A stretch of 62,952 bases of DNA, taken from NCBI GenBank assembly GCA_016839705.1, contig JAEOTR010000065.1:1-62952 (forward strand), in the 5' to 3' direction. Made by a program: the position numbers and the translations under genes. Shown in pieces: positions 12,968 through 53,637 of the stretch. The stretch is from Promethearchaeota archaeon (GTDB lineage Archaea; Asgardarchaeota; Lokiarchaeia; Sigyniarchaeales; SOKP01). The number at the start of each line of letters is the position of its first letter. Within the stretch, counting starts at the first letter, position 1. Below the pieces are notes generated by a model, which worked only from the letters and a program-made list of their open reading frames with translations, made no database searches and was not told the origin of the DNA.

Positions 12968-15900
12968 TTAGGTAGGAATAGTGGAGAGTTGTATAAAGAA
13001 TAAAACCCCAAATAGTATTAATAAAATAAAAAGTGAAAGGAGCGTATAAAATCTCCATTTAACTGAAATTTTCTCCCTTTCTTCTTTTCTTCCAAGAAAA
13101 ACTAATATTATTGTGCCAACAACAGCCGTGGATATTAAACCAGTAAAAAGATACCATTGAGGAGTTATTACGATAAACAATAATCCTAAAACACTACCCC
13201 AACCAATAGATAAGCGTAATATACGTCTTTTGAATATTATATCTGGATCCTCCGTTTGAGTATATGGAATAATTAAATAAAGTAAACCAAATATTGCCAG
13301 CATGAGTAGAGTAGTATGAATCCAATTCAAGTAATTGAGTGATATAGGGGATAAGAGAATCCCAAAAAATATCGCCAAACAAGCACTAATTATTGTCCAA
13401 ATTACTTTGAAATGAATTTTCAAAAAGTTGAAAATAGATTTAACGACACTAATTATTATTAATTTAATTTTTTTAAAGGCTCTAATAAGTAAATCGACAA
13501 ATTTATTGAAAAGTTCACGTAATTCTTCCAACAAGAATACAAAGGGATAAATAACAAACGTAATTGTCAATACCGTTACCCCTATCTCCCAGGATAATGA
13601 CAAATTATATATAATTGAGCTTAATAAAGAAAAAATCGCTGCCCAAAATACGAATGCAATAACAGAATGTTCCTTAAATGGTTTTATTATTATCCCCAAG
13701 AAAATTACGAATGTAAATAATGCAACACTTAGCTTTAAAAATAAACTGAGAGACGGAATAAAACCTAATGATATGTAAATATCGAAAGATAGTAGAGTTC
13801 CAATTGCTAAAAATGAGATTTTTCTAAGAATTCCCCTCGGTTTTTCATTAAATACACTTATATATTCGTCAATGTAAGTCAGAATAAATAAGATTCCTAT
13901 TGAAGCTAGTATCAGATTTAACGAATAAAATGGATTCAATGTCGCATTATAAACCGGCCAGGTTATAAAATCTAAGTACAAAATAATCAGAAGAATCCTT
14001 TTTATCTTCTCCTTATTTGAAATTACAATTTTTGAAAATCCTAACAGCTTAAAGAGGTATGCGGTTTCAATAATTAAGATTAAAATGATTAGAGGTATTG
14101 ATGTAGCCAGTAAAGCGAAGAAATTTATGAAGTATATCCAAATTAAATAGGTTGTCGTGAAAGCCATTATGAAAATCCATGAAAGTACTTTAAGATAATT
14201 AGAAACTTTTCCTAAAAATTTCAATATATACGAATCGATAATCATCAAAATGTGAACCAATAGGCTTAGAATTAAAAGCATTAATTGCTGTTCGATGCTG
14301 AATATTAATAAAGTTTGGAGTAAAAGGAGAAATAAACTAAAATAGAACCCTACTCCCAAAACCTTTGTGGAAAATCTTCTGCTTTTATTAATTTGTTCTT
14401 TCTTAGTTGGGTATAATTGACTCAAAGATGCAAAAAGAGAATAAATGGTATAAAATTGCATTAGAATAAATAACAAGATTTCCAAGCTCAGCAATATTTG
14501 GTATTGTATCGCTGCTGTGTTTAACATTAATAAAAACATTAATGAAATCACAAAGAAACTAAGGGTGTGGATTAATTGTGCATATCCCCTTTTAATTTTC
14601 TTGATTGAGTAAATATCTAATAAGGTTAATGCAAAAAATACTATCTGAGAAACTAAGATACTTTCAATAATCCCTACAAATACGATCATCAAGCCATAAA
14701 ACAGTAAACTCGTTTCAAAATATAACAGAATTATTAGTAATGAAAACACTCGTGTCAAGAATTCCGGCTTTTTTCCTTCAAAAAAGAGTGAATTAACATA
14801 TTTAAAAGTTTTAAAGCTAAAGCATGTCTCTATCAAGATAATTAAAATTGTTGAGAAAATATTCAAAATATTGAACAAACCGAAGATAATTATCATATTG
14901 GTAGCAAACAAACTTTGAAAAACTAATAAAAGTACAATTTCAACTGAAGATTTCAACTTTACATCAATTTTCATGAGAAAATTACTTAAGATAAATATAA
15001 TTAGAAAAGAATTTTGGAACAACAATAGGTAGTATGCAAAACTCCTTAGTTCCTCAATAAGTATAATTATCCCATTAGAGATTATTGATCCTACAAAAAA
15101 TGAACCCGATATAAAGAGAACATAATAAAGGATTAACCGTCCATTAGAGATTATTCTTTTTGAAATATCTAAGTGAGAGAGAAGACTGAGAGAAATCTGA
15201 TTTATAAGTGCAAATATAGATAATAATAGAAATATATTTGAGTGATACATAAATAAGAACAAGGATAGAGTGTTAATGAAAAATGAAAAAGACCAAAAAG
15301 TAAATTTATTCCTTTTTGAATGGAATAAATAATATAAAAATCTCCTGTCTATTATGTATGATTCAAAAAATATGATACCACTAAAGATAAGTATAAGTAC
15401 ATAAATAATACTCGTAATATTCACGTTTACATAAAGCATAAAGAGTAGAATATTAATGCTTAAGGCTGTAGGTATCAATAAAAATATAACAAAACAGATT
15501 TTATTGAAATAAAGAAGGGGGTCTCTTATTTTGAAATGAATATCTGCTTTTTCGATATATTTTAAACTCAATAAGATAAAAACTGACCAGATTATTAGAA
15601 AATCAAGAAATTGATAAATAAAAATGATGTGACTGAATAAAAATTGATCTTGAAAAACAGGGATAAGAATTGATATTAATAACGAGAAAAATAGGGAAAA
15701 AAGAATAAAACTTGTGAAATTTACAAGTTTAATTTGATTTTTATCTTTAAAAATTTTAAACATACTATTTTTCTTTTCTGTAGAATCCCTCTCCTTATAG
15801 TTTTTAAATAAGTTAAATATAATCTGAAAGACAGCTACATATATTATTGAAAAGCCCAGAAATGCTAAAAACCAGATGGATCTAAGTACTTCAATTAACA

Positions 15901-18900
15901 TTAATAATTCAAATAGAGGGAGTACTAAAGGTATTGGAATCAAAGACCAAAGGAAATATCTATAATCTACAAGTATAAAATAGAGAAAAGGTAAAAAGAT
16001 TACTGTGAATGTACTAATTAAAATATAAGGTGATGCCCTCAAGAAAACAAAAACCAGTGATGTTATAGAAGAAGATGTGCCAATTGCTACAATAAAAAGT
16101 GGGATTATTCGATTTATACGAAATTTCAACTTATATTTATTAAATATAAAGTAAGAACATCCAAAGACCGTTAATGCGAAAAAGAAAGCAAACAATACTA
16201 ATTGTGGATGCAAACTACTAAATGTATTGAAAGTTAACCATGCGAAATTGAATATCAATATCCAAGAAAGACTTATCTCAATTATTCTATGCGATAGCTT
16301 TATATATTTTGATGAAAAGAGACTAAACCCTACTACCATTAAACTTAGATTAACGGAGAAAATAAAATTTTGAATAATGGAATAAATAATGAAATAAACT
16401 GTGCTAAAAATACCACCAAGGACAATAGAATAACTGATAGTCAAAATGATGCCAATTGATCTAACATTTGGAAAAAAGGAATATATAATCATTAATAATC
16501 CAATTACCAAGATATCAATTGAAATCGTTACCTCTAATGGTATTCCTATAGAAACTAAATAATAGCCCAAAAACAAAGTATTGATCACTATAAGCATTAC
16601 CCAAAAAACAGATACAATCTTCCAATACTTCAAACCAATTAATATGGGCATTAATAAAAGGACGGCAAATAGGACGAATAAAAGGTTTATTAATCCTAAA
16701 TTACCCAAAAATAGATTTTGGCTAATCCAATACAACAAGAATAAGCTTTCTCCCCAAACGATAAAGACTAGTTTTAGGAAATATTTCTTTATTTTTGTAT
16801 AGATAACGGGTAAGAAAAATAAGGAGCAAATGATAATAGACATAATTGTTGAGCCTGTAAACTCAATATCTCCGAAAAGGCTTAATGAGTTAGTAAGGAC
16901 ATCAACCCCACTTAAACTTTTATATATTATTATAAAATTAACGAAAGGTAAAATATTCCACGCATACCAACCAGATTTCCAAATTGCCCAAGAAATTCTC
17001 CATTGATAAATTCCAATAGAAAGATAGAAAAGAAAAACACCCACGTTAATACTGAATATTATCGGAATGGGATCTGTAAAAGGGATTGAAAATGAAGTAA
17101 CTATGAAGAAGTACAAAAAGGTGGGTATACATAATATTATTGCGAGTAAAACAAAATAAAACGATTTCTTTCTAAAATTTGCAGGAGCTTTATTAAATAA
17201 AAATACAAAAACGAATCCTGTTATACCTAATGTAAGAGTAAAGGTAAGTAGTGGGTTGAGCCCGGTGTAAGGGGGATGATTAAAGAACAAAAAATATGAA
17301 ATAAAGCTTATTAAATCAAAAACTGCTAGTAAAACGCAAGGTTTAATAAACCACTTATACAGTACATTTTTCTGTCTGTAAAAGTAAATTCCCATGAAAA
17401 ATAAAAATAAAAAGACCGATATTGTTAAGTTGTAGATTAAAAGAACTATGGTATATGAAAAAAATAATACGAAAGATAGAAGAGAGAGAGTTGCATATAA
17501 TGCAAACTTCTCATGAATGTTATTTCTTTTATAATTTAACCATATTGAAAAAAGTAAAACAATTGATAAGCATATTAAATAGTTTTGGCTATAAAATGTG
17601 ATTAAATTTAAATCAAATGCATTTAGATAAATAAATCCGCCGAAAGGAACTGCTGTGATCGCTATAAACAATACATATCCTAAAAGGAGATATGCTAGAA
17701 ATCTAAAGATATTAATTATACTACGTCGTGATAAAATAAGAATTAACAAAATTAAAGAAAAAATAGGGATTGTAATATACATAAAAAATTGGCTTATTAG
17801 CAATAAAATGGATGAAAAATAAAACTTGAACAATCGAGGAAACGTATATGATTCTAGTATCGAATTGTATCGCAAAATACAGAAATAAAGAAATAGATAT
17901 AGGTTAGCGATGATAACTGTTAAAGGAATTAAGTTAAAAAGATTGAATGAAGGAATATTCCATGTTAAAATATTGAATATCTCCAAATAGAGGCTTAAAT
18001 TTGAGAGGATAAATATACCAAGAAATACTTTATTTATGAAGAATTGAGTTTCTCCCGAAATTATTTTTAGATTTATGAAATATTTTAGTGTAACAGGAGT
18101 CAAAATTGATAGAATTAATATAAATATGATTATTTGAACTAAAATTGAAAGAGGAAATGCAAGAGATATGAAAAGACAGAAAAAAATCTTAAAAGAAAAC
18201 CATGAAATCAATTCCAAACAATTCTTTAGGATTTCAAATGCTGGTTCTATAACTTTTGACTTAATAAGCAATAGGCTAAATAAGAAAAAGAGTCCAAAAG
18301 ACCACGTAAAATTTAAAGAAGCCAGTCCTAAAGGAAGGAAATATAAAATATTCGTGATTTGAATCAGAGTTACTAAAAGATAGGAAAACGAAAAAACAAT
18401 GCCATATAGTATAATATCTTTTATATACTTACTGATTTTCAGTTCCTTAGAATAATTAGACATTAACCTTAAAGTATAGATGTTTAACATGAAGAAGACA
18501 AAAAAAGTTATGCTAAATGATAATTGATTTATTAGATATGGAAAGATCCAAAAAGCTGTAAAAAGTGAAAAAGAAAACCAAGAAAATGCTTCAAGTAACT
18601 TTAGATGTTTTATTATTTTTTCTAATATTTTAAATTTAATACAAACGAAATCTAAGAATTTTAAAATTGCAAACAGTAGAATTAAAGTTATTGCTATAAT
18701 TATGAGAAAATCAATCATTAGCCCAAAATTTGAAAGTTCTAATCCTACTATAGTTGGGATTAATATAATAATTCCAGACAGAAGTAGGCTATTGACAAAT
18801 ATGCTGTTTTTAACAAGATTTACATTAAAAAGTTGTTTTTTATAAGAAAATAAAGTCGGGAGATAGAAGAAACATGATGCTGCAATGAAAGGAATAAGAA

Positions 18901-21900
18901 ATCTGTACATCGTTCCCAATAGAAGAATAAAAACGTAATAGAATACTGTCGTTCCAGTTAAAAGTATCTCAATTAAAACTTGAGATTTTAATATTACTAG
19001 CTGATATTTATCCCTCATCCTATAATGCTTTACTAAATAATAAATAATGATTAAAAGGCCAAACGCGATATAAAATGTGAAATTTAAAACCGAGATAACG
19101 TCAATCCTTATACCGAAACGAAACAATAAATCCAAACTAATAATGCTAGGTATCATTGTTAGAAAAATGGCTATTAGGATGCCGTCTGAAACTAAAATCT
19201 TGTGGGTTACATTCTCATATTTCTTCATTCTTAAAAGGTAATAAATTGGAAAAATTAAAACCGAGAAAAAGCATAAAAACGGAATCAAAAATACGTAGAA
19301 TGTATTAAGTGTGTATAAAAAAGAATAATAGAAAGCTAACCCCGCACTAAATATTAAGGTAGTTAAATTGATTTTAATACTCGTTGATATAGAAAAGATG
19401 AATTCCTTTTTAGAAAGCAGGATACCTATAATAGACAAAATTAAAAGCGAAAAATAAATAGAAAACAAAAAATTATCATAAAAGGCTAAGCTAACTAATA
19501 TTATAGAGTAAAAGAAGGAGAAAAACAGTGTAAAGAGTTCTGCTGTCATTATATAGGAATTGATACTGATAAATCCCTTTAGTGTAGAATCTTTTACTTT
19601 TCTTAATTTCACCCCAAACTTCATATTTAATTGTATAAAAATGGAAAAAAATAAGAAATCTAATGCCAAAATTACAAAATTACTCGGAAATGAAATAAAA
19701 ATAGCAATAAGGATGTCGATAAATAATAACCAAAGTATATAATAATTTATTAGTAAAAATTGCTTTCGAGTAAGTACTCTCAATAAATGATTTATAGATA
19801 CAAAGAAAATTAACACAGAGGGAAAAATTAGTATTGTATAGCTTATTACTGGGAAAACATTAACACTCAACCCTAATCGGTAGATCTCTATATTAAAAAT
19901 TATTGGGACTAACGTAATAGAAATAGCTAAAAGTACAAAATTAACCAACAAGAGTTTTTGCATAACTTTCTCGTAAAATTTCTTTCTAAATAGGTAATAA
20001 ATCGGGAAAAATAAAATTGAGAACAAACTTAAAAAAGGTATTAAGAAAACATAAAATGTACCCAAAGAGTATAGTATTGAATAATAAAATGCCACGCCTG
20101 CACTAAGTAATAAGAATGTTATGTTAATCTTAAAAACCATTGATTTTGAAAATAATATATTACTCCTCGAAAGAATATTAATCAAAAAAGTAAATAGTAG
20201 TAAGGAAAAATAAGATGATAAGATTAATTTATCAGAGAATACTAGATTTACAAGTATGAAAGAATATAATGAAAAGAAAAATATTACTAAGAACTCAAAG
20301 GTCAATATATATGAATTTATTTTAGTATAACGCTCAAATGAAGAATTCTTTACTTTTTCTAACTTCAATCCAAACTTCAAATTAATTTGACTAAAGATTG
20401 ATAAAAATAAGAAATCTAAAGTTAACATAACTGTATTATCCAGAAAGACAAAAAACATAACTAGAAATAAATCTACTATTAAAATCCATAAAAAGAAATA
20501 GGTTGAAATCGCGAAATTTTTCCGAGAAAGTATACCTAATAGATAATTAGCAAATATAAAAAATATAAAAATTACGGGAAACAGTAAACTTGATACTAAT
20601 AATAGTCTTATCGCAGTGATACCCGCAAAAATGGAATAAATTCTTAAATTAACTAGTATAAAGATTAGGAGCTCGATGAGGAAGATGTGGATAATCACAC
20701 TGATTCTGAAAAGTTTTGATCGTTTTACTGAAAATATTCTAGCATTTAATATGTAAAAAGATACTAAAGAAACAATTGAAATTAATAATCCATGTAGTAA
20801 AATGTTAGATATGAAAATTATTACTGGATTTGAACTAAATAATACTAATTCAAATATAATTAGGTTTTCAAATGTTGTAAATCCAAATAGCGAATAGGTT
20901 ATAATGGTAAAACTCGCTATAGCCAGTAAATTTTGGATAATAATGATATTTTCCTTTACGAAATACTTAACTTTCACAAGTATTTGAAGGCTAAAATAAA
21001 GAGATATCAAAAATATTATAAATTGGATGTTTAAGGAAAAGACGCTTGAAAAGAGCCCAAAGGAAATTGCTATTAAAAGACTTGTAGATATTAACAAGTA
21101 AATATATTTATTATATTTTTTCGGGCACATTTTGGCTTTCTGTTCATAATAGGCAAAAATAAAGAAAAATGGTAAAATTACTAATACAATCCACTGAATT
21201 TTTATAAGAAAACAAAAAAATGTTATAGATCCAATTAAAACTCCTGATAAAATAGTATTATATTTTTGATATTTGATACCCTGAGAGGGTGTCTCTTCTT
21301 CAGGTTTATTACTCTTCGTGGGAGAATCTTTATAGACAGTAAGTAGGGAATTATAATAATAGTTAATATAAAATAATGTTTTGAAGTAGATCAATACAAA
21401 AATAATACTTAAGAACGAACCATTCATCAATTCTAAGGTTGTATATTGAATGCCTGAAAGACTCATAATAACAAAGGGCATTTGAATTAAGAGGATGAAA
21501 ATCAAGCTTGTAATTGATAAAACAAACCTTTGCTTAAATTTTGTTAAATCTTCAAGGATAGGTTTATTTTCCTTAATAGAATCGTTAATCTCACGAGAAA
21601 CTTTTCGGGTTATTATAAAAGTGATGAGATAAAAAAGAACACTAGTTATTAAAGCAAAAAGCCAAGAGAAGTCTGTGAAAAAAGTAAGTGAAAGGAAAAT
21701 AAGGTGAGCAATGTAATTGATGAAAATGATCAAATTGTATGGTTGTTTTACTAGTTGTTGAAAGTTTGCAGCATGTTTGAATTCTCCTTTTTCCTTATTA
21801 AAAAAACCAATAGGCTGGAAACGATAATAATAATATACTATATTATAAAGAACTGTAAAACTTATTACGGGGAGTAGTGTAAATGAATCTGCAGGTGAAA

Positions 21901-22240
21901 TCAATATAAAAATTGGAGTAACTATTAGTGCCAGGATAGTTATTAAATAAAGGATGTGAATCCGAGCAGTCAGGTTATTTCTTTTATTTAGAAAAAAAGG
22001 TTTATTTCTGTACTTATCAAATGCTTTATAGAAAAAAAGCAAAGCAAACATATACGTAATTACTGTAAAAGATAATTCAATATAAAAACCCTGTCTGAAA
22101 AAACTATAAATCCAATAACCTGCAAAAGCTGTTGTTAAAGGAGCTATAACCATAAAAAAACTAAACCACCAGACTTTCTGGAGAAAATCTGTAGCTTTTT
22201 GAAGACTCTCTTCCGAACTTTTGTTATCTTTGGATTTCAT
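12968..22240 (-). CDS. Giant polytopic membrane protein of unknown function (3090 aa)
   Basis: Uninterrupted 9.27-kb ORF with ATG start after AGGTAGAG. Hydrophobic ~20-aa helices alternate with short Lys-rich loops along almost the whole length. Confidence 0.9.
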   Translation of the reverse strand: MKSKDNKSSEESLQKATDFLQKVWWFSFFMVIAPLTTAFAGYWIYSFFRQGFYIELSFTVITYMFALLFFYKAFDKYRNKPFFLNKRNNLTARIHILYLITILALIVTPIFILISPADSFTLLPVISFTVLYNIVYYYYRFQPIGFFNKEKGEFKHAANFQQLVKQPYNLIIFINYIAHLIFLSLTFFTDFSWLFALITSVLFYLITFIITRKVSREINDSIKENKPILEDLTKFKQRFVLSITSLIFILLIQMPFVIMSLSGIQYTTLELMNGSFLSIIFVLIYFKTLFYINYYYNSLLTVYKDSPTKSNKPEEETPSQGIKYQKYNTILSGVLIGSITFFCFLIKIQWIVLVILPFFFIFAYYEQKAKMCPKKYNKYIYLLISTSLLIAISFGLFSSVFSLNIQFIIFLISLYFSLQILVKVKYFVKENIIIIQNLLAIASFTIITYSLFGFTTFENLIIFELVLFSSNPVIIFISNILLHGLLISIVSLVSFYILNARIFSVKRSKLFRISVIIHIFLIELLIFILVNLRIYSIFAGITAIRLLLVSSLLFPVIFIFFIFANYLLGILSRKNFAISTYFFLWILIVDLFLVMFFVFLDNTVMLTLDFLFLSIFSQINLKFGLKLEKVKNSSFERYTKINSYILTFEFLVIFFFSLYSFILVNLVFSDKLILSSYFSLLLFTFLINILSRSNILFSKSMVFKINITFLLLSAGVAFYYSILYSLGTFYVFLIPFLSLFSILFFPIYYLFRKKFYEKVMQKLLLVNFVLLAISITLVPIIFNIEIYRLGLSVNVFPVISYTILIFPSVLIFFVSINHLLRVLTRKQFLLINYYILWLLFIDILIAIFISFPSNFVILALDFLFFSIFIQLNMKFGVKLRKVKDSTLKGFISINSYIMTAELFTLFFSFFYSIILVSLAFYDNFLFSIYFSLLILSIIGILLSKKEFIFSISTSIKINLTTLIFSAGLAFYYSFLYTLNTFYVFLIPFLCFFSVLIFPIYYLLRMKKYENVTHKILVSDGILIAIFLTMIPSIISLDLLFRFGIRIDVISVLNFTFYIAFGLLIIIYYLVKHYRMRDKYQLVILKSQVLIEILLTGTTVFYYVFILLLGTMYRFLIPFIAASCFFYLPTLFSYKKQLFNVNLVKNSIFVNSLLLSGIIILIPTIVGLELSNFGLMIDFLIIIAITLILLFAILKFLDFVCIKFKILEKIIKHLKLLEAFSWFSFSLFTAFWIFPYLINQLSFSITFFVFFMLNIYTLRLMSNYSKELKISKYIKDIILYGIVFSFSYLLVTLIQITNILYFLPLGLASLNFTWSFGLFFLFSLLLIKSKVIEPAFEILKNCLELISWFSFKIFFCLFISLAFPLSILVQIIIFILILSILTPVTLKYFINLKIISGETQFFINKVFLGIFILSNLSLYLEIFNILTWNIPSFNLFNLIPLTVIIANLYLFLYFCILRYNSILESYTFPRLFKFYFSSILLLISQFFMYITIPIFSLILLILILSRRSIINIFRFLAYLLLGYVLFIAITAVPFGGFIYLNAFDLNLITFYSQNYLICLSIVLLFSIWLNYKRNNIHEKFALYATLSLLSFVLFFSYTIVLLIYNLTISVFLFLFFMGIYFYRQKNVLYKWFIKPCVLLAVFDLISFISYFLFFNHPPYTGLNPLLTFTLTLGITGFVFVFLFNKAPANFRKKSFYFVLLAIILCIPTFLYFFIVTSFSIPFTDPIPIIFSINVGVFLFYLSIGIYQWRISWAIWKSGWYAWNILPFVNFIIIYKSLSGVDVLTNSLSLFGDIEFTGSTIMSIIICSLFFLPVIYTKIKKYFLKLVFIVWGESLFLLYWISQNLFLGNLGLINLLFVLFAVLLLMPILIGLKYWKIVSVFWVMLIVINTLFLGYYLVSIGIPLEVTISIDILVIGLLMIIYSFFPNVRSIGIILTISYSIVLGGIFSTVYFIIYSIIQNFIFSVNLSLMVVGFSLFSSKYIKLSHRIIEISLSWILIFNFAWLTFNTFSSLHPQLVLFAFFFALTVFGCSYFIFNKYKLKFRINRIIPLFIVAIGTSSSITSLVFVFLRASPYILISTFTVIFLPFLYFILVDYRYFLWSLIPIPLVLPLFELLMLIEVLRSIWFLAFLGFSIIYVAVFQIIFNLFKNYKERDSTEKKNSMFKIFKDKNQIKLVNFTSFILFSLFFSLLISILIPVFQDQFLFSHIIFIYQFLDFLIIWSVFILLSLKYIEKADIHFKIRDPLLYFNKICFVIFLLIPTALSINILLFMLYVNVNITSIIYVLILIFSGIIFFESYIIDRRFLYYLFHSKRNKFTFWSFSFFINTLSLFLFMYHSNIFLLLSIFALINQISLSLLSHLDISKRIISNGRLILYYVLFISGSFFVGSIISNGIIILIEELRSFAYYLLLFQNSFLIIFILSNFLMKIDVKLKSSVEIVLLLVFQSLFATNMIIIFGLFNILNIFSTILIILIETCFSFKTFKYVNSLFFEGKKPEFLTRVFSLLIILLYFETSLLFYGLMIVFVGIIESILVSQIVFFALTLLDIYSIKKIKRGYAQLIHTLSFFVISLMFLLMLNTAAIQYQILLSLEILLFILMQFYTIYSLFASLSQLYPTKKEQINKSRRFSTKVLGVGFYFSLFLLLLQTLLIFSIEQQLMLLILSLLVHILMIIDSYILKFLGKVSNYLKVLSWIFIMAFTTTYLIWIYFINFFALLATSIPLIILILIIETAYLFKLLGFSKIVISNKEKIKRILLIILYLDFITWPVYNATLNPFYSLNLILASIGILFILTYIDEYISVFNEKPRGILRKISFLAIGTLLSFDIYISLGFIPSLSLFLKLSVALFTFVIFLGIIIKPFKEHSVIAFVFWAAIFSLLSSIIYNLSLSWEIGVTVLTITFVIYPFVFLLEELRELFNKFVDLLIRAFKKIKLIIISVVKSIFNFLKIHFKVIWTIISACLAIFFGILLSPISLNYLNWIHTTLLMLAIFGLLYLIIPYTQTEDPDIIFKRRILRLSIGWGSVLGLLFIVITPQWYLFTGLISTAVVGTIILVFLGRKEEREKISVKWRFYTLLSLFILLILFGVLFFIQLSTIPT
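19080..20590 (-). repeat. Intragenic tandem duplication, period 756 nt (252 aa)
   Basis: LDFLFLSIF..LKFGLKLEKVK..INSYI..SAGVAFYYS..TFYVFLIPFL recurs as LDFLFFSIF..MKFGVKLRKVK..INSYI..SAGLAFYYS..TFYVFLIPFL. The matching gcact lies at 20100 and 19344. Boundaries are approximate. Confidence 0.85.
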
Positions 22241-42392: not shown

Positions 42393-45300
42393 TTGCCTAG
42401 TTCGAGGAAAGGGAAAAAAAAGAAAGACGATAATAAAAGTCAAACTTCAATATTTTCTTTTGCAGATGAGAAAGAAAAGGAGAAAAAAGTCTCTGCCGAG
42501 AAGGACGAAAATAAGGAAAAATTAGAGCAAAGTAGAGAAAAATTAGAGGAAAAACCACCTATTAAAGAAGAAGAAATCGAAAAATCAGCTATTAAAGAAC
42601 AAGAACCCGAAAAATCCCCTATAACTGAAAAAAAAGTAACCAAAAAAGCATCTCAATTAACATTCTTTACTAAAAATGATAAACCATTTGGATTAAAAGT
42701 GGGGAATATAAAATTAGATAAGGTTTTCAGAGAAGGGGTAACCTCAAAATATATTAGATATCTAATTAAACAAGGGGAAATAGTTCAAAATTTAGAAAAA
42801 GGATTATTACTTGATGTTGATTATGATGGTGGGTTAAATAAGGCTTTCTGTAAATTCTATGATTTAGCGACAGACGAAATAAAGATTTGGATAGATACTA
42901 CAGAGCATGAACCTTATTGTCTAAGTAATGAACAAATAGGAGAATTAGAAAAATTATATTTTTCAGAAAAAATCGGTCAAGCGACACAAAAGAAGAAATT
43001 AACTGATTACGCTGGTTTTAAACGATTTGAGAAAGTTAAGAAGTTTAATTTGTTAAGAGATAAAGAAATTGAGATGACTAAACTTTATGGTGAAACTCCT
43101 ACAAATATTGGGGGATCGGGTACGAATATTCGTAATATTTTGGGTGAAAATGACAAAAAAGCATGGGAAGCAGATATACGGTATCACTTGAACTATATCT
43201 TTGATACTCAATTAATTCCTGGTTTAATTTATACTATAAAAGACGGTAATTTAGAAGAATTAAATTATGAGAAGATTGATGAAGATTCAAAAATAATGGC
43301 TAGTGAGCTTCGAGATCTATTCAAGAGTGAATCTCCAGAAATCCAAGAGTTTTCTGAGAAATTCTTAGATATTTTTATTACTCCTATTCCTGATGTTAAA
43401 CGTATGGCAATGGATATTGAAGTTAAAGTAGGTAAAGATGATTATAGAATCCCTGATCCTCATCTTGCTAAACAAGAGGTTATCAGTATATCTTTTGTGG
43501 TTACTGATGGATTAAAACTGGTTTACATGTTAGAACGTGAGGAATATTCCATTAAAGAATTTCATGAAGATTTTCCTTCAGATGCTAAAGTTGTTTTGTT
43601 TAAATCTGAAAAAGACTTGATGACAGAAACATTTCGGCTTATGTGGAAATACCCTATAATCATCACCTTTAATGGAGATAACTTTGATCTTAATTATTTA
43701 TATCATCGGGCTGAAAAGCTAAAAGTAAACAAAGATCTTAATCCAATCCATGTAAAACGAGGATTTGGGATTATGTCAAAAGCAGAATGTGATTTAAGAC
43801 ACGGCATTCATATTGATGTATTTAATTTATTCTTTAATAGGAGTATTTCTGGATATGCTTTTGGAGGTGTGTATGAGAGTGCATCACTAAATGCGATTAG
43901 TGCTGCCTTATTAGGCGAAGAAAAATTTCAGCATGATGAGATAATTCATGAAATGGAATTTGATATTCTTTCATGGTATAATCTTAAAGACTCATTATTA
44001 ACACTGGAACTAACTAAATTTAACAACTCCTTAGTATGGAATTTAATTATATTGTTGTGCCGGATAACGAAGATGCCGATTCATGACATGGTTCGAAGGC
44101 AAATCTCAACTTGGATCCAGAATATTTTTTATTTTGAACACCGAAGAAAAAACTATCTAATCCCGAGGCGCTCAGAAATATCTGAATTCAAAAAAGGCGG
44201 GAAATTAATGTCCAGAGCTAATGATGAGAAATTCCAAGGGGCCTATGTTATCCAACCTGTTCCTGGAATTCATTTTGATGTTGTAGTTATGGATTTCGCA
44301 TCACTGTATCCCTCTATTATTAAAGAATACAATCTTTCATATGAAACTGTTTTATGCCCTCATAAAGATGATGAAGATAATCTTGTAAAAGGAACACCTT
44401 ATCATATTTGTACCCATAAAATGGGGATCTTTGCTTATGTAGTAGGATTTTTCCGGGATATTAGAGTAAAATACTTCAAACCAAAGTCCGGTGATAAAGA
44501 ATTAACAGAAAAACAACGCAACTATTATCAGACTATTCAACAGGCATTAAAAGTGTTTATTAATGGGTCCTACGGTGTATTTGGGAGTCAAAATTTTCCA
44601 TTGTTTTGTCTACCTGTAGCAGAAAGCACAACAGGTATTGGACAATATTCTATCAAACAAACTATCAAAAAAGCTGAGGAATTAGGTGTAGAAGTTTTAT
44701 ATGGAGATAGCGTTACTGGAGATACGCCCTTATTGCTTAGAAGAAATAACACTATTACAATTAAAAGGATTGATGAAATAGGTTCAGAATGGATTAATGC
44801 TGGCGATAAAGAAATAGCCTTTTCTGAATTTGAAGTATGGGGAGAAAAAGGATTTAATAAAATCAATAAAGTTATAAGACATAAAACAAAAAAGAAACTA
44901 TTTAGAATTCTAACACATATAGGAGTTGTCGATGTAACTGAAGACCATAGCCTTTTAACCAAAAATAAGGAAATGATAAAACCTGGACAAGTTAAAATAG
45001 GAACCGAATTGTTACATGCGTTTCCAAAAGAATATAGTGAAAATTTCAATTCAGATCTCTCTAAAGATGAAGCATTTGTATTTGGTTTATTTTATGCTGA
45101 TGGTTCAGCAGGAATATATGATACTAAATGGGGTTATAAATACTCCTGGGCAATAAACAATCAAGATAGAGAATTATTAACAAGAAGTCTAGAAATTCTC
45201 AATCAAATTGAAGCAAAAAATGGATTAGAATTTAAAATTATTGACACTATTGAATCTTCAGCAGTTTACAAATTAATACCTACAGGCGGGTTAAAAGAAA

Positions 45301-46385
45301 TAACCGAAAGATATAGGTCACTTTTTTATAATAAAAACAGTCAAAAAATAATACCAGATATGATTCTAAATGCCCCTTTTGAGATCAAGAAATCATTTTT
45401 CGAAGGATATTATTCTGGAGATGGAGATAAATGGGGACGAAATAAATTCGGGAACACACGACTTTCCAATAAAGGAAAAGTAGGTACAATGGGATTTTAT
45501 TATCTATTATCTGCTTTAGGTTATAAAGTAAGTATTAATTCAAGATTGGATAAACTGAATGTGTATCGATTAAATGCCACAAAATCATATCAAAGAAAAA
45601 ACCCAAATGCTATTAAAAAGATTATTCCTCTTGGAATATCTAAAGATTTTGTATTTGATTTAGAAACAGAAAGTCATCATTTTCACGCAGGTATTGGACA
45701 GATGATTATCCACAATACAGACTCAGTTTTTCTTAAAAATCCCAATAAAGATCAAATGAAAGAAATATCAAATTGGAGTAAAAAAGAATTAGATCTTGAT
45801 TTAGAAGAGGAAAAGACTTACCAATTTTTGGCATTATCAGATCGAAAAAAGAATTATATTGGAATATATAAGAATACAAAATACACAGATGTAAAAGGAT
45901 TAGTGGCCAAAAAGAAAAACACTCCAGAATTTATTAAAAAAGCCTTTAGTGAAATGATTGAACTATTGAAAAAAATTACAAATAATGAAGACTTCTTGAA
46001 GGCAAAAGATGAAATCATAGAGATCGTGAGAGATAATTTAAGGAAAATAGGGAAACCGAATACATTTGTATTAGGAGACTATGCTATAAATATTGGGTTA
46101 CAAAAAGATCTGAAAAACTATACTAAAACTATTCCCCAACACGTTAGGGCTGCTAAGGAATTAAGAGATGTGACAGGAAGAAACTTTCAAAAAGGTGAGA
46201 CAATCAGCTTTATTAAAAGTAAGGGAGCAAGCGGGGCAAAAGCAATTGAATTGGCTAAACTCCAAGATATAGATACCAAAAAATACAAGGAGTTATTAAA
46301 ATCTGCATTTGAACAAGTCTTGGATGCCCTTGGTATAACTTTTGATGAAATTCGAGGTATAAAAAAGTTGGATGCGTTTTTTTAA
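42393..46385 (+). CDS. polB1: Family B DNA polymerase, PolB1 type, intein-containing
   Basis: LLDVDYDG and WEADIRYH; exonuclease motifs DIE, FNGDNFD and YNLKD; polymerase motifs DFASLYPSII, KVFINGSYG and YGD|TDS; C-terminal KKLDAFF. Confidence 0.95.
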   Translation: MPSSRKGKKKKDDNKSQTSIFSFADEKEKEKKVSAEKDENKEKLEQSREKLEEKPPIKEEEIEKSAIKEQEPEKSPITEKKVTKKASQLTFFTKNDKPFGLKVGNIKLDKVFREGVTSKYIRYLIKQGEIVQNLEKGLLLDVDYDGGLNKAFCKFYDLATDEIKIWIDTTEHEPYCLSNEQIGELEKLYFSEKIGQATQKKKLTDYAGFKRFEKVKKFNLLRDKEIEMTKLYGETPTNIGGSGTNIRNILGENDKKAWEADIRYHLNYIFDTQLIPGLIYTIKDGNLEELNYEKIDEDSKIMASELRDLFKSESPEIQEFSEKFLDIFITPIPDVKRMAMDIEVKVGKDDYRIPDPHLAKQEVISISFVVTDGLKLVYMLEREEYSIKEFHEDFPSDAKVVLFKSEKDLMTETFRLMWKYPIIITFNGDNFDLNYLYHRAEKLKVNKDLNPIHVKRGFGIMSKAECDLRHGIHIDVFNLFFNRSISGYAFGGVYESASLNAISAALLGEEKFQHDEIIHEMEFDILSWYNLKDSLLTLELTKFNNSLVWNLIILLCRITKMPIHDMVRRQISTWIQNIFYFEHRRKNYLIPRRSEISEFKKGGKLMSRANDEKFQGAYVIQPVPGIHFDVVVMDFASLYPSIIKEYNLSYETVLCPHKDDEDNLVKGTPYHICTHKMGIFAYVVGFFRDIRVKYFKPKSGDKELTEKQRNYYQTIQQALKVFINGSYGVFGSQNFPLFCLPVAESTTGIGQYSIKQTIKKAEELGVEVLYGDSVTGDTPLLLRRNNTITIKRIDEIGSEWINAGDKEIAFSEFEVWGEKGFNKINKVIRHKTKKKLFRILTHIGVVDVTEDHSLLTKNKEMIKPGQVKIGTELLHAFPKEYSENFNSDLSKDEAFVFGLFYADGSAGIYDTKWGYKYSWAINNQDRELLTRSLEILNQIEAKNGLEFKIIDTIESSAVYKLIPTGGLKEITERYRSLFYNKNSQKIIPDMILNAPFEIKKSFFEGYYSGDGDKWGRNKFGNTRLSNKGKVGTMGFYYLLSALGYKVSINSRLDKLNVYRLNATKSYQRKNPNAIKKIIPLGISKDFVFDLETESHHFHAGIGQMIIHNTDSVFLKNPNKDQMKEISNWSKKELDLDLEEEKTYQFLALSDRKKNYIGIYKNTKYTDVKGLVAKKKNTPEFIKKAFSEMIELLKKITNNEDFLKAKDEIIEIVRDNLRKIGKPNTFVLGDYAINIGLQKDLKNYTKTIPQHVRAAKELRDVTGRNFQKGETISFIKSKGASGAKAIELAKLQDIDTKKYKELLKSAFEQVLDALGITFDEIRGIKKLDAFF
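44709..45716 (+). mobile_element. Intein with LAGLIDADG homing endonuclease (336 aa) at the YGD|TDS (pol-c) site
   Basis: Begins SVTGDTP; block B VTEDHSL; LAGLIDADG helices FGLFYADG and FEGYYSGDG; ends HN with +1 Thr. Confidence 0.95.
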
Positions 46386-51900: not shown

Positions 51901-53637
51901 TTACTCTTCACCTTCCTTTTTAATTCCACCATTACGTGCTACTTCAGGGTTGACTTCGATAACTTCTTGACCGGTAGTGGTATCAAATTCATTTCGAACC
52001 TTAGCAGTTATTTCTTTGGCAATTTGTTTTTCAATTTCAGGCCTGTGAATTGTGTTCATAGTGCAGAAACTAACTTCTTTAACTGTATCATCTGGCATTG
52101 CTACACCGAAGTGAACAATACACCTTTTTGTTCTTTCCAAATCCATATTATATGCGTCTTGAAAATGCATTGAGCTTAAAAGCAATGTTCCATAACTGAA
52201 AGAACTGATGCTTTCCCAATCCCCATTTATTAACACTCTGCTGAACATTTCCATGAGCTTACCAGGTTTTTTTGCATACTGCAAGACCCCTAATAGGAAT
52301 CGAGCGCGAAGCTGGGTTTTATCAAGGAAATTCAAACCATTATCTAATGTTTTCCCAAAATCCCCTAACAATCCTTCAAATATCTTTAGTGGTTTTTTCT
52401 CTTTGTCCTTGATTTTTTCCCAAAATTTATTTGCGAAATCAATAACTTTTAGGGGGTCGAAATACTCCATAATAGGCATCATCTCCTTTGTAGTGGGATC
52501 TATTGCCATATATGAAGCAAAGCCACAATCGGGATGACAGGTAAACTCAATAGGTTCAACATCAGCGAGGTATGCGATGATTCTACCTAACTCCACGATG
52601 GTTGTTAAGGGGTACCACGAGTTTTCCATGCTTATTCTTCCTCCTGTTTGTTCTTCAATCTTCTTAAGAACATCTGAATTAGTAATTCTCAATTCTTCAC
52701 GTTCTTCGAAAGCAATCCGTCCACATAAGGAAACTGGCTGAAAGGTGATTCCTCGAACTACATCTATATTATCAATTGCGTACTGTATAATATTTCCAAC
52801 CTCAATGTCAGTGACTCCTTTAGCAATTGTTGCAACTAATACAATGGAATTTAAACCAGCTTTTCGGCAATTATCAATAACTCTTTGTTTATATGGCATT
52901 AAATTCTTAATACCGCGAGTTTTTTCGTAAGTTTCATTATTGATTCCATCAAATTGGAAGTATAGTGTATCTAAGCCCATCTCCTTACATTTCTTGGTAA
53001 ATTCTAAACCGTCTTTTTTCTTTTGAAAGCCATAACCATTTGTAGCAACAATTACTTCTTTAAATCCATTGTCTTTTGCCATCTTGCAAATTTCAGGAAA
53101 ATCCTTTCGAACTGTAGGTTCACCACCCGTAAACATGATTGCAACTGCGGGGATAGGTTTACTTCTAAAGTGTTTCATTACTTTATCAATTTCCTCGAGA
53201 GTTGGCTCAACAAGATATCCAGATTGTAAGACATTAGCATAACAGAAATTACAGTTAAAATTACAGCGGTTTGTTAGATCTATTAAAGCCAATGAACAAG
53301 TTGATATATGTTGTTCACAGAGTCCACAGTTATAAGGGCATCCTCTTGGGTCGTCTCCCTGAAAATCTGGTGGATTAGTGTCACCATCTTTATCGAATTG
53401 CCATACAATATTTCCATTCTTATCTTTGATAGCGTAATGTGTCCACTTATAATATTTAGCAGAACTACTAATTAAATCTCTGAAATCTCCATGGTCTACG
53501 CATGTTTTTCTCATCCAAATTTTTTCATCTTCTTCATAAACTTCTGCACCAATTGGTTGTAAGCATTCAGGACATACACTCTTCGTTTTCCGATAATAAG
53601 GTTCATTTACATATTCTTCATCGTTTAAGTGATACAT
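51901..53637 (-). CDS. tes: Tetraether lipid synthase (Tes/GDGT-MAS, MJ0619-like radical SAM enzyme)
   Basis: SVCPEC..KTC..HG, GCPYNCGLCEQH, DLTNRCNFNCNFCYAN, HPDCG and FQDAYNMDLER..RC..H..FC. Confidence 0.88.
   Translation of the reverse strand: MYHLNDEEYVNEPYYRKTKSVCPECLQPIGAEVYEEDEKIWMRKTCVDHGDFRDLISSSAKYYKWTHYAIKDKNGNIVWQFDKDGDTNPPDFQGDDPRGCPYNCGLCEQHISTCSLALIDLTNRCNFNCNFCYANVLQSGYLVEPTLEEIDKVMKHFRSKPIPAVAIMFTGGEPTVRKDFPEICKMAKDNGFKEVIVATNGYGFQKKKDGLEFTKKCKEMGLDTLYFQFDGINNETYEKTRGIKNLMPYKQRVIDNCRKAGLNSIVLVATIAKGVTDIEVGNIIQYAIDNIDVVRGITFQPVSLCGRIAFEEREELRITNSDVLKKIEEQTGGRISMENSWYPLTTIVELGRIIAYLADVEPIEFTCHPDCGFASYMAIDPTTKEMMPIMEYFDPLKVIDFANKFWEKIKDKEKKPLKIFEGLLGDFGKTLDNGLNFLDKTQLRARFLLGVLQYAKKPGKLMEMFSRVLINGDWESISSFSYGTLLLSSMHFQDAYNMDLERTKRCIVHFGVAMPDDTVKEVSFCTMNTIHRPEIEKQIAKEITAKVRNEFDTTTGQEVIEVNPEVARNGGIKKEGEE

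What the first reader, a model, noticed from the sequence alone, without database searches (positions are those of the whole stretch)
44709..45716. Archaeal PolB1 intein resembling the giant-virus (Mimivirus) PolB intein
Seen: a 336-aa Ser-start, His-Asn-end intein in the catalytic YGD|TDS motif with both LAGLIDADG acidic residues present, so it may still be homing-competent. Established: Mimivirus PolB has an intein at this same site, and archaeal pol inteins are mostly known from euryarchaeal PolB3. From recall only, the Mimivirus intein shares many blocks with this one: SVTGDTP, VIRHKT.KK, LTH.G..DVTEDHSLL, IGTELLH.FP, KYSWA.NNQD, SS.VYKL.P, QRKNP.AIKKI and DLETES..FHAG.G.MI. Inference: intein transfer between Asgard archaea (or their viruses) and Nucleocytoviricota, or shared ancestry from the proto-eukaryote stage.
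Basis: partly seen in the sequence, partly recalled or inferred. Interest (0 to 1): 0.82.

Follow-up and report, generated by a model that had tools for sequence, protein, structure and literature searches.

The report
Giant-virus-type intein in Asgard polymerase
An Asgard archaeon's DNA polymerase gene carries a self-splicing, self-spreading insert whose relatives sit mostly in giant viruses of eukaryotes and in archaeal-type tailed viruses, which points to a mobile element that crossed between archaea and the eukaryotic virus world in a direction that could not be determined.

Summary
Observation confirmed. A 336-aa canonical intein with intact-looking LAGLIDADG residues sits at the pol-c site (YGD|TDS) of a Promethearchaeota (Lokiarchaeia) PolB1. 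Identical contigs bridge both junctions in three runs of one study.

It belongs to the giant-virus-type pol-c subfamily: median 48%, maximum 55% identity to about 250 Pol-delta-like/NCLDV copies, against a median of 27% to other archaeal pol-c inteins. Its closest relatives are six other Asgard PolB1 copies (53-84%). Intein distance to NCLDV (1.3-1.8) is far below extein distance (3.5-4.1), so the link is horizontal, not inherited with the polymerase. The allele is rare (2 of 161 class genomes).

The subfamily's sister group is inteins in other TACK/Asgard PolB1, not euryarchaeal PolB3. The internal backbone is a polytomy, so direction and date are unresolved; AU tests rejected no direction. 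I found no paper reporting this. The mechanism is ordinary; the host range is new.

The parts
42393..44708 (+). PolB1 N-extein (exonuclease and polymerase regions up to YGD)
   Evidence: relatives 88-95% identical over residues 560-772, Asgard-labelled
44709..45716 (+). 336-aa pol-c intein, giant-virus-type subfamily
44709..45029 (+). N-terminal splicing region: Ser1; block B Thr77 and His80
   Evidence: TIGR01445; Ser1 and His80 invariant in 173 relatives
45057..45584 (+). LAGLIDADG homing endonuclease domain (aa about 117-292)
   Evidence: Pfam PF14528; fold like I-DmoI and PI-PfuI; dN/dS about 0.14 against the G039 copy
45072..45104 (+). first LAGLIDADG motif, acidic residue D131
   Evidence: D or E in 164 of 173 relatives
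45396..45425 (+). second LAGLIDADG motif, acidic residue D238
   Evidence: D in 164 of 173 relatives
45606..45716 (+). C-terminal splicing region: block F Asp317, His335, Asn336
   Evidence: D317 and N336 invariant in 173 relatives
45717..46385 (+). PolB1 C-extein, beginning with Thr(+1) of the catalytic TDS

Best explanation
A canonical class-1 bifunctional intein. PolB1 is made as a 1330-aa precursor; Ser1, Thr+1 and Asn336 would excise the 336 aa and re-form the catalytic YGDTDS motif (residues shown; splicing inferred from established intein chemistry). Its LAGLIDADG domain would cut intein-free polB alleles at the same codon and be copied in by break repair (residues and purifying selection shown; activity inferred). 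Because YGDTDS is conserved across family-B polymerases, one intein subfamily has moved between unrelated polymerases: Asgard PolB1, PolBs of archaeal-type tailed viruses, and NCLDV/Pol-delta-like PolBs (incongruence shown). It most likely entered and spread among Asgard chromosomes through tailed viruses that replicate in the same cells (inferred, about 55-60%). At least one archaea-to-eukaryote-virus crossing occurred, of unknown direction and date.
For: Identity ladder: Asgard copies 53-84%, Pol-delta-like/NCLDV median 48% (max 55%), prokaryotic viruses 42-53%, a Thermoproteota PolB1 group 35-37%, other archaea median 27%. Clade of Asgard + tailed-virus + NCLDV-like copies at 96/92 under LG+C20 and 97/97 under LG+G4. 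Exteins: Asgard PolB1 one group, apart from NCLDV; query-to-NCLDV distance 3.5-4.1 for exteins vs 1.3-1.8 for inteins, while within Lokiarchaeia the intein is the faster part (ratio 1.3-2.0 on core columns). Patchy: 2 of 161 class genomes; the query's extein nests among 9-11 intein-free alleles; close relatives carry a different pol-c intein (23-24%) or a pol-a intein. Asgard group + three tailed-virus inteins are sisters under LG models (97; 95/98; 87/94). Those viral contigs share an RFC / clamp-like / PolB module; nine PolB relatives of one of them have intein-free lengths, 904-942 aa; one carries a QueT 66% identical to this genome's own, with no hit at E 1e-20 in 251 Thermoproteota genomes; an intein-free relative's accessory genes match 66 of 134 genomes of this family at about 68% DNA identity. 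Intein GC3 0.18 vs extein 0.24.
Against: The Asgard + tailed-virus sister pair falls below support under the C20 mixture model. No CRISPR spacer or provirus ties these viruses to Asgard hosts. The three sister contigs are fragments with no terminase or capsid seen; a terminase was shown only for a different carrier virus. Raw best hits of NCLDV-like inteins fall on Asgard copies (241 of 257) more than on tailed-virus copies. Among the Lokiarchaeia copies the intein branching order is compatible with the extein order, which also fits old vertical descent with heavy loss. Most NCLDV assignments rest on extein clustering with GVMAG records and three contexts read.
Confidence: 0.68

Rival explanations
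1. Archaeal source: the subfamily arose in TACK/Asgard PolB1, and Asgard cells or their viruses gave it once, long ago (possibly in early eukaryotes), to the ancestors of giant viruses, where it radiated. This concerns direction and is compatible with the homing mechanism of the best explanation.
For: The successive sisters of the big clade are PolB1 inteins of Thermoproteota plus an Asgard family (96/92), then a third Asgard type. A split of all prokaryote-associated copies from all NCLDV-like copies is not rejected (p-AU 0.38); all cellular vs all viral is as likely as the free tree (p-AU 0.52).
Against: The root depends on a long outgroup branch; a tree joining NCLDV copies to euryarchaeal pol-c is also not rejected (p-AU 0.14). 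My deep sampling favoured Asgard and Thermoproteota. About 50% identity is high for a split of two billion years.
Confidence: 0.3
2. Giant-virus source: NCLDV are the reservoir, and a Loki/Heimdall cell picked the intein up from giant-virus or protist DNA in sediment; the tailed viruses got it from their Asgard hosts.
For: NCLDV-like copies are far more numerous and diverse (about 250 here; 596 clusters at E 1e-30); LG trees nest the Asgard group among them; the best non-Asgard hit is a GVMAG at 55%; the query's 18-nt site differs from the Mimivirus site by 2 bases (site from PMC549080).
Against: The nesting nodes are unsupported; no NCLDV capsid gene found in this genome (weak); NCLDV are not known to enter archaea (own knowledge); site similarity is not special (median 4 mismatches to Asgard, tailed-virus and NCLDV sites alike).
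Confidence: 0.3
3. Vertical inheritance with the polymerase from a common ancestor of Asgard PolB1 and NCLDV/Pol-delta PolB.
For: Same insertion site; deeper relatives occur in PolB1.
Against: Exteins are about 24-27% alike over partial alignments while inteins are about 50%; distance ratio 0.4-0.5 against 1.3-2.0 within Lokiarchaeia; joining the Asgard copies with those of Asgard family f31 is rejected (p-AU 2e-7).
Confidence: 0.04
4. Assembly or binning artefact: a viral intein joined to an archaeal gene.
For: Genome is a MAG with 6.8% contamination; NCLDV-type contigs do sit in some bacterial MAGs.
Against: Junctions bridged in three runs; six other Asgard PolB1s from other samples carry it, on contigs with archaeal neighbours; intein identity tracks extein identity.
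Confidence: 0.01

Closest known systems
Mimivirus PolB (R322) intein, pol-c allele (Ogata et al. 2005, PMC549080)
   Same: Same YGD|TDS site, Ser...Asn|Thr ends, LAGLIDADG domain, the eight shared blocks; same subfamily by proxy sequences at 47-55%.
   Different: Host is an archaeal PolB1, not a Pol-delta-like viral enzyme; penultimate His instead of Lys; 336 vs 351 aa. Ogata's best archaeal match was 24%; the Asgard copies are about twice as close to the giant-virus type.
Euryarchaeal and DPANN PolB3 pol-c inteins (Thermococcales, Methanocaldococcus, Woesearchaeota, Nanoarchaeota)
   Same: Same site and chemistry.
   Different: Median 27% identity, about 390-400 aa, separate clade at 100/99.
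Nitrososphaera gargensis PolB1 inteins (Makarova et al. 2014, PMC4104785)
   Same: The only PolB1 inteins that review knew of.
   Different: Not compared directly. Thermoproteota PolB1 pol-c inteins found here are 35-37% identical and form the sister group, not the same clade.
Anaeramoeba and Chloropicon nuclear Pol alpha/delta/epsilon/zeta inteins (Gallot-Lavallee et al. 2023, PMC10710043)
   Same: Family-B polymerase inteins; the paper argues for virus-mediated spread.
   Different: Eukaryotic nuclear genes; sequences not obtainable here; the paper's main text does not mention Asgard.

Membership tests
Canonical class-1 intein | In-frame insert; Ser/Cys1, terminal Asn, Ser/Thr/Cys at +1 | tested here: met
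Canonical class-1 intein | Block B Thr-x-x-His, block F Asp, penultimate His | tested here: met
   T77, H80, D317, H335
Canonical class-1 intein | HINT fold | tested here: met
   model pLDDT 93; Foldseek E 5e-19 to TliVMA intein
Canonical class-1 intein | Self-splicing activity | not testable with these tools
   needs a precursor splicing assay
LAGLIDADG homing endonuclease | Two motifs with acidic catalytic residues and a conserved lysine | tested here: met
   D131, D238, K213 (invariant in 173); dN/dS about 0.14
LAGLIDADG homing endonuclease | Cuts the intein-free allele | not testable with these tools
   intein-free alleles co-occur in the same samples; no assay
pol-c allele | Insertion between the Asp and Thr of YGDTDS | tested here: met
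Giant-virus-type pol-c subfamily | Groups with NCLDV inteins to the exclusion of euryarchaeal ones | tested here: met
   96/92 and 97/97; identities. The AU test of Asgard + other archaea was not significant (p 0.24), so this rests on supports and distances.
Giant-virus-type pol-c subfamily | Derived from within Nucleocytoviricota | tested here: inconclusive
   polytomy; AU p 0.38 and 0.52 for the alternatives
Giant-virus-type pol-c subfamily | Direct pairwise identity to the Mimivirus intein | not tested
   sequence seen only as paper text; motifs checked by eye; Moumouvirus copy 40% over the N-terminal part
Archaeal PolB1 (extein) | PRK05761-type DNA polymerase I, grouping with Asgard/TACK PolB1 | tested here: met
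   908 bits vs cut-off 780

The most novel reading that the evidence does not exclude
The giant-virus PolB intein descends from TACK/Asgard PolB1 inteins and crossed once from Asgard archaea or their tailed viruses into the ancestors of eukaryotic large DNA viruses. It would then be a molecular tracer of shared cells between Asgard-infecting viruses and the early eukaryotic virosphere, and would supply the mesophilic intermediates that Ogata et al. 2005 postulated but could not find.
Probability: 0.3. Interest if true: 0.82.

Novelty: new member of a known kind. Interest (0 to 1): 0.6.

Why it matters
The origin of the 'archaeal-type' intein of Mimivirus has been open since 2005: the best archaeal match was 24%, and the authors called for a chain of intermediates. 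Asgard PolB1 copies and tailed-virus copies about 50-55% identical to giant-virus ones, with TACK/Asgard PolB1 inteins as sister group, fill that gap and move the archaeal link from hyperthermophile PolB3 to PolB1. Homing needs donor and target DNA in one cell, so the shared subfamily implies real DNA contact between archaea (or their viruses) and eukaryote-infecting viruses. This is testable by cross-cleavage assays and denser trees. The element itself works like any bifunctional intein.

Tried and rejected
Single-sequence pattern scans of IMG/VR and JGI metagenomes found nothing; alignment-based scans worked. Cultured-phage collection: best hit 28%. The APMV Mimivirus genome was not retrieved from IMG/VR; Moumouvirus was. 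No proviral copy of the tailed-virus PolB was found in 400 Asgard genomes, and no convincing spacer-like match in this genome. Scans for fuller genomes of that virus group failed. Homing-site DNA similarity does not discriminate groups. Seven of eight AU tests were not significant (p 0.10-0.52), so I claim no direction. The short peptide runs printed for partial hits were slicing artefacts and were ignored. The core extein tree dropped the three GGD-type viral exteins because my motif filter missed them. No RNA holder was listed. Paper searches found no report of an Asgard/giant-virus PolB intein link; the library lacks most subscription journals.
Full report
Observation. The ORF at 42393-46385 encodes a 1330-aa family-B polymerase. 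Bases 44709-45716 encode 336 aa from Ser to His-Asn, between YGD and TDS. NCBIfam places the extein in PRK05761 DNA polymerase I, the PolB1 type. Its nearest relatives are 88-95% identical over residues 560-772 and labelled mostly Promethearchaeota; 116 of 118 have the uninterrupted motif. The genome holds one copy of the intein. Neighbouring genes are ordinary cellular enzymes. Contigs with zero differences bridge both junctions in three sediment runs of one study, and one contig shows the intein-free join of exactly 1008 bases.

Anatomy and mechanism. Ser1, His80, Asp317 and Asn336 are invariant across 173 relatives, Thr77 nearly so; D131 and D238 of the two LAGLIDADG motifs and K213 are present. 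The model (pLDDT 93) matches solved endonuclease-bearing inteins and I-DmoI. Against the copy in genome G039 the endonuclease part has dN 0.18 and dS 1.32, at least as constrained as the splicing part (dN 0.30, dS 1.41). Splicing and homing follow from established intein biology; neither was assayed.

Relatives. Searches of the protein collections, IMG/VR, GTDB, 400 Asgard genomes and 351 genomes of the phylum of a Nitrososphaerota-labelled record gave over 300 pol-c inteins. Identity to the query: other Asgard PolB1 copies 53-84% (Promethearchaeota, a Heimdallarchaeaceae, a Kariarchaeaceae); Pol-delta-like/NCLDV median 48%, maximum 55% (a GVMAG); prokaryotic-virus PolBs 42-53%; Thermoproteota PolB1 35-37%; Asgard family f31 31-34%; a third Asgard type 23-25%; other archaea median 27%. 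Ogata et al. reported 24% as its best archaeal match. The contexts I read for the large group are giant-virus-like. Some members carry the Pol-delta C4 zinc finger and could be mirusviruses or protist genes; I could not sort these.

Trees. With LG+C20 the query's Asgard group (97/93), the Kari copy, two tailed-virus groups and the NCLDV-like groups form one clade (96/92) with an unresolved base. Its sister is the Thermoproteota + f31 PolB1 group (96/92), then the third Asgard type, then PolB3-type inteins (same deep order). With LG models the Asgard group is sister to three tailed-virus inteins (97; 95/98; 87/94), but this node drops below support under C20. Exteins tell another story: Asgard PolB1 forms one group apart from the viral enzymes. 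Query-to-NCLDV distances are 3.5-4.1 for exteins and 1.3-1.8 for inteins, whereas within Lokiarchaeia the intein is the faster part on core columns (ratio 1.3-2.0; 0.8-1.8 against full-length exteins); the Heimdall copy is also too close for its extein. The link is therefore horizontal. AU tests rejected only the union of the Asgard copies with family f31 (p 2e-7); every directional alternative survived (p 0.10-0.52).

Distribution. Two of 161 genomes of the class carry this allele. Close PolB1 relatives carry a different pol-c intein or a pol-a intein, and the label needs at least three changes on the extein tree. This fits repeated invasion and loss. Intein GC3 is 0.18 against 0.24 for the extein, in the lowest 2% of this genome's genes, a mild sign of foreign origin.

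The third carrier. P0025, P0034 and P0035 lie on fragments with dense small genes and a shared clamp-loader, clamp-like and PolB module; the clamp-like protein's nearest Atlas clusters are 96-100% viral, commonest Uroviricota. Nine PolB relatives of P0034 have intein-free lengths. One contig has a QueT 66% identical to this genome's own, with no comparable hit in 251 Thermoproteota genomes. An intein-free relative's accessory genes match 66 of 134 genomes of this family and a much smaller share of the more distant Asgard families. A second carrier virus has a PolB1-derived polymerase and a terminase. No spacer or provirus link was found, so an Asgard host is inference. Published Asgard viruses encode PolB and clamp loaders (bioRxiv 2021.07.29.454249); no PolB intein is mentioned there.

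Comparison and verdict. It works like, and is a member of, the canonical pol-c bifunctional inteins. New are the hosts: Asgard PolB1 and archaeal-type tailed viruses within the subfamily known from giant viruses, with PolB1 inteins as the sister group. Makarova et al. 2014 knew PolB1 inteins only from Nitrososphaera gargensis. Gallot-Lavallee et al. 2023 describe nuclear polymerase inteins and virus-mediated spread without mention of Asgard in the main text. I found no paper on this link, in a library that is incomplete. Cross-domain movement is well supported, a tailed-virus route is moderately supported, direction and date are open. Interest 0.6.

Noticed in passing
window 12968-22240 (-): A 3090-aa ORF in a low-GC stretch (24-29%) with no Pfam hit; perhaps a giant surface or secreted protein.
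   Followed up: partly
P0009 residues 901-1296 and 1377-1788: A topoisomerase-II-like protein carries two inteins of this same subfamily (43% and 39%) at non-polymerase acidic sites, suggesting non-allelic jumps.
   Followed up: partly
P0006, P0007, P0008: Two related inteins in tandem at the pol-c site, only two residues apart, in NCLDV-like PolBs.
   Followed up: no
P0011, P0013, P0016, P0017 and others: Many NCLDV-like PolBs carry a second member of this subfamily at the pol-b site, 30-38% identical to the query.
   Followed up: no
P0162, P0206, L154-L157, L182; L176, L177; P0149: Asgard PolB1 hosts at least three distinct pol-c intein types, plus a pol-a intein in a close relative.
   Followed up: partly
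L324, L325, L326: PolB1 pol-c inteins in three genomes of the Thermoproteota sample, closest to those of Asgard family f31 (40-44%).
   Followed up: partly
L210 8001-11630 (same PolB as L251, 80-kb IMG/VR record): A terminase-bearing virus with a PolB1-derived polymerase and this intein, from a sample that also holds the Heimdallarchaeaceae carrier.
   Followed up: partly
L088, L089, L091, L092, L093: Distant relatives (23-25%) inserted at another site (NHE|SPRRG) in bacterial MAGs; the flank looks like GDP-mannose 4,6-dehydratase from recall.
   Followed up: no
L082, L083, L084, L085: Bacterial MAG contigs with NCLDV-type PolB and intein, probably mis-binned giant-virus DNA.
   Followed up: partly
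window 51901-53637 (-): Radical SAM protein with an HMPTM zinc ribbon, possibly a tetraether lipid synthase-like enzyme.
   Followed up: no
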